DNA of 64,000 nt from Octopus vulgaris (lineage: Eukaryota). Where the stretch lies: positions 22,258,001 to 22,322,000 of the forward strand of contig OX597827.1 in NCBI GenBank assembly GCA_951406725.2, in the 5' to 3' direction. Shown one piece after another: positions 38,417-52,677 of the stretch (position 1 is its first letter; the number at the start of each line of letters is the position of its first letter). Both the position numbers and the translations under genes were made by a program. The notes below the pieces were generated by a model that was not told the DNA's origin, did not search any database, and saw only the letters and a program-made list of their open reading frames with translations.

Positions 38417-38575
38417 GTGAGAATTTACAAAAAAACAAAAGACGAAGACGGGTGTGTGAACAACAAACAGATGTATTAGTTTAACGGTCGGGAAGTGAGA
38501 AAATCTTTTACGTTTCGAGCCTATGCTCTTCAACAGAAAGGAACACAAAAATAAACAGAGATAGAAAATAGAGAG
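38417..38575 (-). mobile_element. Short hammerhead-bearing Penelope-type repeat ending in (TA)n
   Basis: Minus strand CTTT-CTGTTGA-A-GAGC(ATAG)GCTC-GAAA-CG-TA-AAAG at 38505-38540. Confidence 0.7.
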
Positions 38576-39144: not shown

Positions 39145-39360
39145 TGTGTGACCGCGTGTGTACCGTTGGCGATTTGTTTCTCTCCGTCTTCCCTTCCTTG
39201 GATCTTTCCTTTTCCTGTGTTTCTGACGAAGAGCTCCGCTCGAAACGTTAAATCCTCCTTCTTTCTTTCCTTTCTTGAGCGTCCAATAACACTATACTTG
39301 TTCCACGTCCTCGCGTTGTTGTGTTTTCTCTTTGTGTTTTCATTTTTGGATTAACTTAAT
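39145..39360 (+). mobile_element. Short hammerhead-bearing repeat flanked by (TA)n
   Basis: TTT-CTGACGA-A-GAGC(TCC)GCTC-GAAA-CG-TT-AAA at 39220-39252; intact core. Confidence 0.75.
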
Positions 39361-40822: not shown

Positions 40823-42090
40823 TTAGGTTGTTCCGAAAATAATGACTGATTTCAGAAACTAATTTATTCTGGAAAAATTAACAATAGAAATGTTTTGATT
40901 AGTCAAAGTATGAGCCGTGAACATCTATGCATCTCTGCTATTGATCAACGAGATTATTTATGCTTCGTTGATAATAATTTACTGGCTTTAGAGCTAAGAA
41001 ATCTTTGAAAACTGATTCCACCTCTGGTTTGGACCTGAAAGTTTTATCACTTAAAAAGCGTGTTTAAATGCTTCAAAAAATGGTAGTGAAAGATCAGGAG
41101 AATATGGAGGATGTGGTAAAGTCTCGTATCCCAAGTCTGTGAGTTTCTGCAGCGTTATTCTTGCAACATGTGGTTTTGCATTATCGTGGAGCAGAATTGG
41201 GCCATGCTGGTTCACCAATGCAGGTCTCATTTTTTGCAAGTGAGCATGCATTTCAGCGAGTTGATTGCAGTAAACCTCTGCGGTAATGCTCTGATTGGCT
41301 TCCAGAAAGCTGTAATGGACAACACCAATTGCAGACCACCAGACACTCACCATAATTTTTGCTGATGCAACTTTGACTTTGGGAAATGTTTGGGGGACTC
41401 TTCACGATCAAGCCATTGATCTGATCGTTTACGGTTATCATAAAAGATCCACTTTTCGTCACAAGTGACTATTTGGTCAAGAAAAGGATCATTGATATTT
41501 CGAAGAAAGAGCATCGAGCACACTCCAAAACGCCGAACTTTTTGATTTTCATTGAGCTCATGTGGTATCCATTCATCGAGGGTTTTCACCTTACCAATCC
41601 TCTGCAGATTGCGCGAGACCGATGCAATACCAACACAAAGCGCCTGAGACATTTCTCTGACACTTTGACATGGGTTTTGTTCAACAATAGCTTTCAACTG
41701 TTCATTGTCAAGATTGTATGACCGTCATCTACCTTCTTCATCTTCAAGGCTCTCATCACCACTACGGAATTTTTGAAACCGCCTTCGTACTGTGCGATCA
41801 CTTGTGGACCCCTCTCCCCATGTTCTGCTAATATTGGCAGTAGTTTGGGAGGCATTGTGCCCCCCTTGAACTCATGCAAGAACAGTAAGCGAAGGTCTTT
41901 TTTGTCATGTTCATAATTAAGGGCGCCGATGCTTCAAGAATGTTTTCTGAAATAAGTAAAAATTTATTAAAGAGCATACATCAATTATTAAGTATGTCAA
42001 AATTCACCAAAAATATAATTAAAATCCTTCGATAAAATTGCGTTTCAAAACACAACACTTAGAGCGGCCGTTATTTTCGGAACAACTAAA
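40823..42090 (-). mobile_element. Near full-length mariner (DD34D) with frameshifted transposase
   Basis: TIRs TTAG(G)TTGTTCCGAAAATAA; WIPHEL, IVTCDEKWIFYDN, LLHDNAKPH, HPPYSPDLS; about 1.27 kb. Confidence 0.92.
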
Positions 42091-44537: not shown

Positions 44538-45001
44538 TTGTTTGATTAGATTTGACCGGAGGCTAATGAAAAAAACCCCAATCGAGCTGTATCTCCCGTA
44601 TCTCTTCTTAACAGACTTCTTTCACAATCACATTTGTTGTTCAATCCAGTTCATCTCAGATCAAAACCCTTTCCAACCGTGAGCATCACGTTCCCCCCCC
44701 CCCAGATACAATCTAACTGGAAGCTCTTACTATGCAATGTGTTTTATTTTAAAACGATGAAATGTCATTGAGGAAAATTTGGCTGCTATTTCTAACAGGT
44801 TACACAGAAGCTTCCTCGTTAGGTCAACAGATCCTAACTGTGAAAAGTGAGGACCGCAATATCACTATTATAATTATAATTTCACTAATTACTTTAAGAA
44901 TACTATAACAACTCCATAATTCTACTGGTAACTCTAGAACTATTCTGTCACACCAATTCTTGAACTCTTCTGTAATTATTCTGTTCTAACTTCTTCATTC
45001 T

Positions 45002-45140
45002 TCAGTTCTATACATAGGAATGAGAACCCAGGTTCGAAATTTCCCCAAGACACCTGATGAAGGCTGGAGAGTACATCAGCCGAAACCTTGTGTTAACAAC
45101 AAACAAGTTGAGGACAAATATCCATCAAATGTAAATAATG
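45002..45140 (+). mobile_element. TSD-flanked hammerhead element (same family as 52228-52654)
   Basis: 11-bp TSD TTCTTCATTCT; GACAC-CTGATGA-A-GGCTG(GAGAGTACAT)CAGCC-GAAA-CC-TT-GTGTT; ends GTAAATAATG. Confidence 0.8.
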
Positions 45141-45289
45141 TTCTTCATTCTAGATCTATTATAGAAATTCTGTAACCATTCTCTCAGGGCATTGCTACTC
45201 AACTGTAGTCCATGTGGCCCTTAGGGGTCAACATAAGATTTTTTGGTGCTACTATAGTATATCTACCATCCATTTTCTTCTATAATATA

Positions 45290-45855
45290 TCTATAAATTT
45301 TCGGAAAAACTTCCGCCCGTCCCTCACCATTTTCTCCCAAATTTGTTTATTAAAAAATTTTTTTTGGCTTAAAGTCCCCGTTTTCGGATACAGTGGTTCC
45401 GGAAAATCGCCAAAAATCGGCATTGTGAAAATCCCACCTTTCCCCACCAACTTCTTCAATTTTGACTTTTTTCCGCAACACTAACCCTATCCGTAAGTAC
45501 AGAAATGTTTTGAAAATTTTTGTCCGAACCCTGATGTCCGTATTTATCCGCATATTTAGAAAAGAAAAAAATTCTTAAAAATAAATTTTACAAAGATTTT
45601 TGGAAATTATTTTCAGAATCATAATCTCCGTATTTTTCCGCATATTTTGAGAAAAAAAAAATTCTGAAAAAAGCTTAAAATGAAGAGAATGGGGTGAGGG
45701 TGTGAATTTAGAAATGTCGATTTTTTATGCAGATTCGTATTCCCCGTAGCCGAAAAGGGGTGGGGTTGTGTCGAAAAAAAAGTTTTAAAAAGGGATGGGG
45801 TTTTTTTGGCGGGGGGGGGGGTGTTCAAGTCTTGCCAAATTTTCTACATATAGTC
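45290..45855. mobile_element. Diverged fold-back element
   Basis: About 45350-45480 is an imperfect reverse complement of about 45660-45790; central direct repeat TCCGTATTT(A/T)TCCGCATATTT. Confidence 0.65.
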
Positions 45856-50075: not shown

Positions 50076-51285
50076 TTACGTGGCGTTGGCGTGAACGCGC
50101 ATGTGTCGATTGAGGTTGCCGGATTGAGAGAAGCGGAGCAAGCAGAGCTTACACTGGTAAGGTTTCTCTCCGCTGTGGATCCTCACATGTTTGGTCAACG
50201 TGGAACTGTCTGAAAAGGCCTTCTTGCACATCCTACAACGATAAGGACGCTCTCCGGAGTGAGTGCGCATGTGCGTCGTTACCGAAGAACTCTGAGAGAA
50301 ACGGCGATCGCAGATGGGACAGCGGAACGGTTTTTCCCCCGAGTGGGTCCGTATATGTGCCGTGAGGTTAGCTGCTTGTGAAAACGATTTACTGCATGTG
50401 CTGCAACGATACGGTTTCTCACCACTATGCGTTCGCATATGTGTTTTCAGCGTAGAGGGCCGTGCGTAAGTCTTTCCACAGATCCGGCAGAGATTAACAC
50501 GTGCCGTATCCGAACCCACGGCACCGTTTGGATTGCTTACACCGATGTTACCAACAACACTAACACCCCCACCGATGTTTGGCGAGCAAGGGGTTTGCCG
50601 CCCCCCGGACATCAGTTTAGTCCTCTTGAAGTGGTTCATGCCACAAAAACGTGACGCCTGCTTGAATGAATCCGAAGACTTGTAAATGATGTTCCTACTG
50701 TCCGCCATGGCCCTAAGATCCGTCGACAGTGAATAGGACGCCGTGTAAGGATGTGATTGTCCAGTATATGTACCATACTGGGGCTGAAGCGTAGGAGCGT
50801 GGCCGCCATACTGACCGAGTGGGTTTTGCGGTTGCCCTGTCCATTGTTGTACGGCATTGTATTGGTGATTGGGTGCCAACGTAGGGGGAACCCCCACGTT
50901 CATGCTCATTGACACGTTAACACTCATAGATGGGAACATGTTCGCTTGGGCCTGCGCCGATGTGTTCTGGTTCTGAGGTTCGGTATAAGCTGGAGCGTAC
51001 TGAGCACCTGTAGAACCCGTATATGCAACGTTGGACAAGACATGTTGGGCTTGGTGAGGGTGGTGAGGGTGGTGGTGGTGGTGGTTCACGGTGTAGTTGA
51101 TTGGTGGAGAAGTTTGTGTATGGTTCATTTGAGGTGGACCCATCGTCTGTTGGTTAATGTGTTGAATAGGTGGAGACATGGGAGCTAGCTGGCCGTTCAG
51201 TTGAGGCCGAACCACGGCGTGTTTCAGTGAGAGAAGGGCATCTGCGATGTCGTGCGAGGATTTTTCTTTGAAAACCGAGAAGTCT
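50076..51285 (-). CDS. gl: Glass-like C2H2 zinc-finger transcription factor, last coding exon (five zinc fingers)
   Basis: [29 protein letters not shown]...[21 protein letters not shown] is recognisably the Glass five-finger array; also [14 protein letters not shown] and DIADALLSL motifs; TTTCAG acceptor before 51285 (phase 2); stop TAA at 50076. Confidence 0.95.
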
Positions 51286-52227
51286 CTGAAACAAATTAAA
51301 AACTTAGAGTTAGAATTGAATATCAAAAGTAAAAAAATACTTTTGTGATAAAAATTTTTATTTAATAACTGGAAGCAAGCAAATATTACGGTAAACAATG
51401 TGTGTGTGTATTTTATTAAAATGTGAATCATTCAATGTCAATAATTTGAATACTTTATTGTAAATGATTTCCCTGTTTTCCTGAACAACTAAACTCAGAA
51501 TTAAATCTTTGGTAATTCTACAGACAGATATTTCGGACATTTTTCAGTGATTTCAGAAAAAAAAAAAAAAAAAAATTAAATTCAGTAAAAGATTTCTTTA
51601 ATTTTTCCACATCCCCAATTTTCTGTGAATTTTCTCTCACCTCTCTTCCTGAACTCGTTCGTTCATTTACTCATTCTTTTTTCTCTTTCTTTTGTTTCTT
51701 CTCTCCTTCGCTCTTCTGTTCATACGTTTCACATTCACCTCCATCGCATTCCTCTTGCCTCTCCACCGACCTCACTCATTTTCTTTCCATACAGAATAAA
51801 ATGGCGTTGCACTGGGCCTCTTGTTCTTCTCTTATAACTTTTTTTTTCACATTACAGCTTCTCGCATCCCTGTATTTCCTTCACCATCCTTCTTCAGACT
51901 CCCTCTGCTCCAATCTTTTTACTGCCACGCTTTCCTCACACTTAACACAACGCACCACACCCTAACTATAACCCATGCCGCTTTACATCCGTATTCGCAC
52001 ACCACTGCATATACACCCTCACACGCATACAAACACATGCACGCGACAACACACACAGCACTCCATCTTTATGACATATCAAAACATGGATACACCCCTA
52101 TACGTGTACACACCCGTCCTCTCTTTCCTCTCTTCTTAACTCCTTCCATACAACCACATTGTAGTTTTTTTTCTCTTATCTTAATCAATTTTCGTCTCAC
52201 ACGTACTTTAAGACTTTTTCCTTTCTA

Positions 52228-52425
52228 CAGTTCTATATTTAAGAAATGAGGAATTATGTACCTTATTTACATTATTTACATTATTTACATTTGACGGATA
52301 TTTGTCCTCATCTTGTTTGTTGTTAACACTATGTTTCGGCTGATACACCCTCCAGCCTTCATCAGGTGTCTTGGGGAAATTTCGAACCTGGGTTCTCATT
52401 CCTAAGGTATTTTTCTATGTTGTTG

Positions 52426-52491
<66 letters not shown>

Positions 52492-52654
52492 ACACTGCCT
52501 GGAATCGAACTCGGAATCTTGGGGTTAGTAGCCCGCATTCTTAGCCACCACGCCATATATCTGATGACGGTTGGAAGGTATATCAGACGAAACGTTGTGT
52601 TAACAACAAACAAGATGAATACAAATATCCGTCAAATGTAAATAAAGTAAATAA
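52228..52654 (-). mobile_element. tRNA-headed, double-hammerhead retroelement in glass intron
   Basis: 13-bp TSD TTTTTCCTTTCTA (52215-52227 and 52655-52667); minus-strand A box TGGCGTGGTGG and B box GAGTTCGATTCC; (AAT)n; hammerhead at 52325-52370(-); inverted hammerhead copy at 52561-52601(+). Confidence 0.8.
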
Positions 52655-52677
52655 TTTTTCCTTTCTATTTTAAGCAT

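What the first reader, a model, noticed from the sequence alone, without database searches (positions are those of the whole stretch)
45002..45140. Second TSD-flanked member reproduces the same inverted-end architecture
Seen: an 11-bp TSD (TTCTTCATTCT) encloses a short reversed tail piece (CAGTTCTATA, the same sequence that starts the 52228 insert), then the forward hammerhead segment ending in GTAAATAATG. Both inserts therefore start with the reversed tail and end in GTAAATAA, with different inversion points, and both targets are T/C-rich on this strand. Inference: a reproducible integration mechanism (target-primed RT with second-strand priming or template switch) with target preference.
Basis: partly seen in the sequence, partly recalled or inferred. 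Interest (0 to 1): 0.7.

Follow-up and report, generated by a model that had tools for sequence, protein, structure and literature searches.

The report
Penelope-type mini insertion in octopus DNA
This 139-base insert in an octopus genome is a stump of a very common non-coding jumping element, flanked by an exact 11-base duplication of its landing site, and its two head-to-head ends match an already described pattern likely left by the copying enzyme of Penelope-type jumping genes.

Summary
An exact 11-bp duplication (44991-45001, 45141-45151) encloses 10 bases identical to the start of the 52228 insert, then 126 bases of the family body with a minimal hammerhead. The 10 bases are the far end of a 35-nt optional 3' tail, seen whole at 52228-52262 and in 5 of 41 translated relatives, one from Octopus bimaculoides. 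The body is very high-copy; both junctions recur in independent contigs, so this is no assembly error; no empty site was seen. A duplicated target, a head-to-head 5'-truncated partner, a one-sided 30-40-nt tail and a hammerhead are the published signature of endonuclease-bearing Penelope-like elements, whose reverse transcriptase starts at two sites bracketing the tail and extends both nicked strands. So the mechanism is likely real but known. Against: the 5' piece also resembles the right flank (3 of 10,000 by chance), no partner ORF was found, and 'reproducible' rests on two DNA copies. The open, more novel point: the 52228 insert carries a tRNA-like head inside its duplication, suggesting a SINE that rides Penelope machinery.

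The parts
44991..45001 (+). left target-site duplication, 11 bp (12 bp if 45002 is a changed target base)
   Evidence: exact repeat of 45141-45151
45002..45012 (-). last 10-11 nt of the family's 35-nt 3' tail, in reverse
   Evidence: 45003-45012 identical to 52228-52237, the tail end; tail also in translated relatives P0002, P0005, P0018, P0030, P0037
45013..45014 (.). inversion junction; two unassigned bases, or a decayed 3-nt overlap (45010-45012) between tail piece and body
   Evidence: family contigs continue differently upstream of 45015 (loose ends); alignment; assignment is inference
45015..45140 (+). 5'-truncated body (pseudo-LTR-like) ending in one GTAAATAAT unit, the tail-less 3' end
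   Evidence: 119 of 126 identical to minus strand 52279-52404; summed contig depth in millions against 173 in the left flank of run X2
45049..45094 (+). minimal type I hammerhead motif, core changed at 45087, likely dead
   Evidence: descriptor scan 3 hits in window, 0 in 50 shuffles; fold with helix I 5 bp and helix II 6 bp, z -2.3; majority G at 45087; no Rfam match
45141..45151 (+). right target-site duplication
   Evidence: junction spanned without difference by contigs of X2 and X19 (45116-45355)
52215..52227 (+). sister insert: left 13-bp duplication
52228..52262 (-). sister insert: whole 35-nt tail
   Evidence: in frame with the body as in P0002
52263..52420 (-). sister insert: body with hammerhead and three 9-nt end units
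52421..52487 (-). sister insert: (CAA/TAA)n microsatellite between head and body
   Evidence: family-wide upstream consensus in three runs
52490..52554 (-). sister insert: tRNA-like head, inside the duplication
   Evidence: full-length but weak tRNA model alignment, 11 bits against a cut-off of 29, E 8.6; ARAGORN finds none; A- and B-box-like words by eye (box consensus recalled)
52561..52654 (+). sister insert: inverted 5'-truncated arm, starting at the hammerhead core and ending without tail
   Evidence: inverted repeat of 95 nt, 89%
52655..52667 (+). sister insert: right 13-bp duplication

Best explanation
The stretch is a 139-base, duplication-flanked copy of a high-copy, hammerhead-bearing octopus repeat that was likely inserted by the reverse transcriptase-endonuclease of a Penelope-like element acting in trans. 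Shown: duplication, reversed tail end, truncated body, high copy number, two kinds of 3' end in the family (with and without a 35-nt tail). Inferred: the endonuclease nicked the two target strands 11-12 bases apart; each 3'-OH primed reverse transcription inwards; the left end started at the distal site (tail end) and stopped after about 10 nt, the right end started at the proximal site (the GTAAATAAT units) and ran 126 nt; the two cDNAs were joined head to head and the overhangs filled in. In the 52228 insert the same two start sites were used, but the tail-primed cDNA ran the whole element (about 327 nt) and overlaps the other arm by about 95 nt, so two templates (or re-use of one) are needed, as a dimeric enzyme would allow. 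The inversion point is simply where the two cDNAs stopped.
For: Exact duplications of 11 and 13 bp. Tail 35 nt, within the 30-40 nt given for Penelope-like elements (PMC8557442 passages). PMC3846280 passages describe an adjacent inverted pLTR, 8-10-bp duplications, a 31-bp tail on one of the inverted pLTRs, pLTR plus tail in frame with the ORF start, and mobilisation of foreign sequence in trans by pLTRs. Here too one frame is open from 52399 to 52229 through hammerhead and tail. PMC11167929 (parts 1-2 of 4 read): the purified protein cuts and extends both strands, prefers AT-rich DNA, starts at two internal sites that bracket the tail, and is predicted to be a dimer. The hammerhead fits the minimal type of PMC4209133 (parts 1-2 of 4 read). 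Translated relatives: tail after the body in 5 of 41 (0 of 200 shuffles each); P0005 reads reversed tail, reversed body, forward body, forward tail. Contigs of three runs mostly leave the reference at 45138-45141 into more GTAAATAAT units and mixed AT-rich sequence, i.e. many tail-less ends.
Against: No autonomous partner: three protein searches gave no RT-bearing protein, and none of 6 window frames scanned had an RT. No empty site among the 15 of 49 joints shown. Only 10-11 bases carry the tail claim in this copy, and 45002-45021 aligns to the right flank 45152-45168 better than 9,997 of 10,000 random stretches. The raw-read run X22 laid only 4 reads, which a high-copy family should not give; unexplained. 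Direction and number of priming events are inferred from an in vitro study of a lizard element.
Confidence: 0.75

Rival explanations
1. Plain 5'-truncated insertion with a longer (about 28-31 bp) duplication whose distal part has decayed; the 'reversed tail' is changed target DNA that happens to look like the tail.
For: 45002-45021 aligns to 45152-45168 with 14 matches, 3 mismatches and 2 gaps; 3 of 10,000 random stretches score as well (lengths chosen after looking). The left flank holds similar words (TRF period 22).
Against: It needs about 3 changes, 2 of them indels, within 10 bases next to 11 perfect bases, while the body differs from the family majority at only about 4 of 126 places, and the changes must land exactly on the tail end in the same register as at 52228. 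For the tail-like part alone the likeness is weak (2.7% of random stretches).
Confidence: 0.07
2. Same Penelope machinery, but the inverted piece arises by self-priming, fold-back or a template switch of one cDNA, not by priming from the second target strand.
For: PMC3846280 (passage) proposes self-priming to explain palindromes at inverted junctions; the junction in the sister insert is a 6-base palindrome (52555-52560).
Against: Fold-back would mirror the sequence next to the junction; here the reversed piece is the tail end, which the forward arm does not contain. Both outer ends sit at the two fixed 3' ends.
Confidence: 0.1
3. An ordinary LINE-dependent SINE (for example RTE-driven) with a tandem-repeat 3' end, inverted by L1-style twin priming (mechanism recalled, not read here).
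For: tRNA-like head, 9-nt tandem end, many RTE and SINE families in Octopus vulgaris (PMC13282606, parts 1-2 of 3 read). In this copy the two pieces do not overlap, as twin priming on one RNA would give.
Against: Minimal hammerhead, optional 35-nt tail and overlapping arms in the sister insert and in P0005 are Penelope marks; twin priming on one RNA gives no overlap and no fixed second start.
Confidence: 0.07
4. Assembly artefact or chance repeats.
For: AT-rich, repeat-rich window.
Against: A contig of X2 spans the left junction (44809-45041, 1 difference) and contigs of X2 and X19 span the right junction (45116-45355, 0 differences).
Confidence: 0.01

Closest known systems
Insertions of endonuclease-bearing Penelope-like elements (Penelope/Poseidon, Neptune, Nematis): inverted pLTR, tail, short duplication (PMC3846280, PMC8557442, PMC11167929)
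   Same: Head-to-head 5'-truncated arms, one-sided 35-nt tail, 11-13-bp duplication, minimal hammerhead near the 3' end, open frame through pLTR and tail, AT-rich target.
   Different: No RT-EN ORF in either insert; here the tail-side arm is cut down to 10-11 nt; the sister insert has a tRNA-like head and a microsatellite upstream.
Minimal hammerheads of metazoan PLEs (PMC4209133)
   Same: CUGAUGA core, extra base before helix II, G10.1-C11.1 pair, 5-bp helix I, no helix III, palindromic 15.2-16.2 in the family majority.
   Different: This copy has lost the palindrome (45087); cleavage not tested.
Non-LTR retrozymes as non-autonomous PLE derivatives (PMC7229834 passages; bioRxiv 10.64898/2026.07.22.740005, parts 1-2 of 5)
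   Same: Non-coding, type I hammerhead, a few hundred bases, likely moved by PLE proteins.
   Different: Retrozymes are defined by tandem arrays and circular RNA; both window copies are single or head-to-head, with a minimal ribozyme; circles not tested.
SMalpha SINE-like retroposon of schistosomes (named in PMC8490949 passages)
   Same: SINE-like element that carries a type I hammerhead.
   Different: No sequence comparison made; a PLE tail and inverted ends were not mentioned in the passages read.

Membership tests
EN+ Penelope-like element (autonomous) | ORF with PLE reverse transcriptase and GIY-YIG endonuclease | tested here: not met
   inserts are 139 and 427 bp; no long RT-bearing relative of the 57-codon frame; no RT in 6 window frames scanned
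PLE-type insertion (works like) | inverted 5'-truncated partner, head to head | tested here: met
   95-nt inverted arms in the sister insert; 10-nt reversed piece here; P0005
PLE-type insertion (works like) | optional 30-40-nt tail, usually at one end | tested here: met
   35 nt at 52228-52262; tail in 5 of 41 translated relatives; many tail-less ends in contigs
PLE-type insertion (works like) | minimal type I hammerhead in the terminal repeat | tested here: met
   core changed in this copy
PLE-type insertion (works like) | short target-site duplication proven by an empty site | tested here: inconclusive
   exact 11 and 13 bp repeats, but X2 and X19 carry the insert and X8 and X22 do not cover the flanks
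PLE-type insertion (works like) | 3' end shared with an autonomous PLE of the same genome | not testable with these tools
   no genome held; DNA collection scans empty
tRNA-derived SINE | tRNA-related head with A and B boxes | tested here: inconclusive
   weak full-length tRNA alignment in the sister insert; B-box-like translation upstream of the body in P0025, 2 of 1000 shuffles, one of many tests; absent from this truncated copy
tRNA-derived SINE | head linked to the body across the family, Pol III transcription | not testable with these tools
   contigs break in the microsatellite upstream of 45015 (median loose part 17-21 bases)
non-LTR retrozyme | tandem arrays of hammerhead units | tested here: not met
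   no tandem copies in the window; tandem units seen only in a sister family among the translated hits, by eye
non-LTR retrozyme | self-cleavage and circular RNA | not testable with these tools
   no RNA runs examined

The most novel reading that the evidence does not exclude
Octopus genomes hold a tRNA-headed SINE of tens of thousands of copies that has captured the pseudo-LTR, hammerhead and tail of a Penelope-like element and is moved by its enzyme. Each insertion is primed from both nicked strands at two fixed start sites, with the tail start tied to a TTCT(A) nick at the end of a pyrimidine run. This would make it a Penelope-dependent SINE and a huge natural record of the Penelope integration step.
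Probability: 0.35. Interest if true: 0.55.

Novelty: new member of a known kind. Interest (0 to 1): 0.3.

Why it matters
As given, the finding is a neat small example of a known pattern. Its value is as a lead: the late steps of Penelope integration (how the inverted arm and the one-sided tail form) are stated as unresolved in PMC11167929 and PMC8557442, and a very high-copy non-coding family would let start sites, duplication lengths, nick sequence and arm lengths be counted on thousands of events. If the tRNA-like head is a family feature, it would be a SINE that depends on Penelope instead of a LINE; my ten library searches listed no paper whose title or abstract start describes that for octopus, but Repbase, Dfam and the Zenodo library of PMC13282606 could not be seen.

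Tried and rejected
No genome is held. Exact-pattern scans of viral, metagenome and prokaryote collections found 0 copies. Rfam: nothing at gathering score in the window, no hammerhead at E up to 10 over either insert; minimal hammerheads lack helix III, so this is no evidence against. ARAGORN: 0 genes. Raw-read run X22 laid 4 reads and was uninformative; X8 did not cover the unique flanks. Partner search with the 57-codon frame gave only chance translations or exonised pieces; P0016 and P0034 were set aside by eye as unrelated. The idea that TAGAA always follows the tail was not supported: the residue after KYRT-like ends was I, E, E, I, L in 5 relatives, never the V that the 52228 flank gives. 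The idea that the endonuclease picks tail-like targets was set aside: both targets resemble the reversed tail (0.15% and 0.6% of random stretches) but in registers about 7 bases apart. A stem between body and tail folds but no better than shuffles (47 of 200). A text search for four family words found one unrelated paper. The supplement of PMC13282606 (5,371 characters) has no 'hammerhead' or 'ribozyme'. Own-scan look-ups by sequence and place were empty.

Full report
Check of the observation. TTCTTCATTCT lies at 44991-45001 and 45141-45151 and nowhere else in the window; CAGTTCTATA lies at 45003 and 52228 only. The insert 45002-45140 consists of one base, the 10-base piece, two bases, and 126 bases that match the minus strand of 52279-52404 at 119 places. 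A repeat of 11 bases at both borders arose in 1 of 20,000 strict random placements and 295 of 20,000 loose ones. The sister insert 52228-52654 has an exact 13-base duplication and 95-nt inverted arms at 89%.

Host and family. The window is microsatellite-rich animal DNA with a C2H2 zinc-finger frame and a transposase remnant. Named protein hits that are translations of this repeat come from Octopus sinensis and O. bimaculoides, so the host is an octopus. I laid 4 of 24 listed runs on 44700-45400. Three contig runs laid 14,876, 12,430 and 18,136 records on the stretch, with summed depth in the millions on 45012-45155 against 173 in the left flank of X2; this shows a very high-copy family but is no copy number. 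A contig of X2 spans the left junction (1 difference) and contigs of X2 and X19 span the right junction (0 differences), so the insert is real and shared by runs under two organism labels. None of the 15 of 49 joints shown skips the insert; X8 does not cover the unique flanks. The raw-read run X22 laid only 4 of 12.9 million reads, which does not fit a high-copy family and is unexplained. This copy differs from the family majority at 4 listed places (45070, 45074, 45087, 45108); at the rate used in PMC13282606 that is very roughly 10 million years.

Anatomy of the element. On the minus strand the sister insert reads: tRNA-like head (52554-52490; full-length but weak alignment, 11 bits, E 8.6; ARAGORN none), a TAA/CAA microsatellite, the body, a minimal hammerhead, three 9-base units, and a 35-base extension ending at 52228. 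Loose ends before 45015 (262, 236 and 360 contigs; 19 of 806 rows shown) give the microsatellite and the same upstream bases, so 45002-45014 is not the normal upstream sequence. Loose ends behind 45138-45141 give more 9-base units and then mixed AT-rich sequence (agreement 0.44-0.49), so many copies end without the extension. One frame is open from 52399 to 52229. Searching with it gave 40 hits: by eye 22 translations of this family, 16 of a sister family and 2 unrelated proteins. Of 41 proteins tested, 5 carry the extension after the body (0 of 200 shuffles each; P0032 borderline, 7 of 200), and one, P0005, reads reversed tail, reversed body, forward body, forward tail. The same test gave one false top score (P0012), so single weak scores are not to be trusted. 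The extension is therefore an optional family tail, and 45003-45012 is its far end.

Hammerhead. A descriptor scan found 3 motifs in the window (45054 +, 52365 -, 38536 -) and none in 50 shuffles. The fold has a 5-bp helix I and a 6-bp helix II (z -2.3), an extra base before helix II and a G-C first pair, as in the minimal hammerheads of Penelope-like elements (PMC4209133, parts 1-2 of 4). The family majority has G at 45087 and hence the helix III palindrome needed for dimers; this copy has C and is likely dead. Rfam has no match.

How it likely works. PMC3846280 (passages) gives as typical Penelope structure an adjacent inverted pLTR, duplications of 8-10 bp, a 31-bp tail on one of the inverted pLTRs, pLTR and tail in frame with the ORF start, and transport of foreign sequence in trans. 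PMC8557442 (passages) gives the same with a 30-40-bp tail often at one end. PMC11167929 (parts 1-2 of 4) shows that the purified protein cuts and extends both strands, prefers AT-rich DNA and starts at two internal sites that bracket the tail. Applied here (inference): staggered nicks 11-12 bases apart leave two 3' ends; the left one primed at the tail end and stopped after about 10 bases, the right one primed at the 9-base units and ran 126 bases; the cDNAs were joined head to head, perhaps over the three bases 45010-45012. In the sister insert the tail-primed arm ran the whole element and overlaps the other arm, which needs two templates or re-use of one. Both right junctions share one T with the target. 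Both tail-side junctions follow TTCT, and both duplications are pyrimidine runs on the same strand relative to the element (1.8% and 1.0% of words); with two cases chosen after looking this is a lead only.

Results against. The bases 45002-45021 also align to 45152-45168 (14 matches, 3 mismatches, 2 gaps; 3 of 10,000 random stretches), so a longer decayed duplication is a real rival. It needs two indels and a substitution in ten bases beside eleven perfect ones, ending in an exact tail end in the sister's register, so I give it 0.07. No autonomous partner was found, no further DNA copies could be fetched, and the idea that TAGAA always follows the tail failed in 5 of 5 relatives.

Comparison and novelty. 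It works like a Penelope-type insertion (inverted arm, tail, hammerhead met; empty site inconclusive). It is not an autonomous Penelope element (no ORF) and not a retrozyme by the tandem criterion (bioRxiv 10.64898/2026.07.22.740005, parts 1-2 of 5; PMC7229834 and PMC7761336 passages). Penelope-like elements cover 6.83% of O. vulgaris in the supplement of PMC13282606, so a driver is plausible. Earlier notes of this scan on other genomes read similar stumps the same way; these are unchecked and not support, and one warns that a SINE head beside a Penelope piece can be a one-off. Here the head lies inside one duplication with the body, the microsatellite link is family-wide, and P0025 has a B-box-like translation in the same order (2 of 1000 shuffles, one of many tests); that makes a Penelope-dependent SINE plausible but unproven. 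SMalpha of schistosomes is a SINE-like element with a hammerhead (PMC8490949 passages). L1 twin priming and the A/B-box consensus are recalled, not read. Repeat libraries (Repbase, Dfam, the Zenodo files of PMC13282606) and preprint supplements could not be seen and may already hold this family.

Verdict. Real, correctly described, and an ordinary example of a known insertion pattern in an octopus repeat family: new member of a known kind, interest 0.3; the SINE-on-Penelope reading has probability about 0.35 and would merit about 0.55.

Noticed in passing
window 38420-38560 (minus strand, core at 38536): A second, different minimal hammerhead motif (CUGUUGA core) in a repeat that starts right after a TA-rich microsatellite; its 3' part weakly resembles this family.
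   Followed up: partly
window 39150-39360 (plus strand, core at 39223): A third hammerhead-like core with an intact GAAACGTT, set between TA microsatellites; missed by the strict descriptor.
   Followed up: no
P0001 (Octopus sinensis) and P0003 (O. bimaculoides dystrobrevin isoform): Annotated octopus proteins whose N-terminus is a translation of this repeat: exonisation or gene-model error.
   Followed up: no
P0006, P0007, P0009, P0014, P0020-P0022, P0026-P0028, P0033, P0036, P0038-P0041: A sister family with a similar hammerhead region, a different upstream part, tandem units of about 38 codons, and head-to-head joins in P0007, P0009 and P0026.
   Followed up: partly
window 52561: The plus arm of the sister insert starts exactly at the first base of the hammerhead core, after a 6-base palindrome.
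   Followed up: no
window 50076-51431 (minus strand): Long frame with five C2H2 zinc fingers, a host transcription factor exon (glass-like by recall) between the two inserts.
   Followed up: no
window 41347-41724: Remnant of a mariner-type transposase (Pfam Transposase_1, E 7.5e-06).
   Followed up: no
window 44768-44801 and 45300-45400: Two other high-copy repeats close to the insert, seen as depth peaks with their own loose ends.
   Followed up: no
window 45508-45671: Tandem of a 90-base AT-rich unit, 1.8 copies.
   Followed up: no
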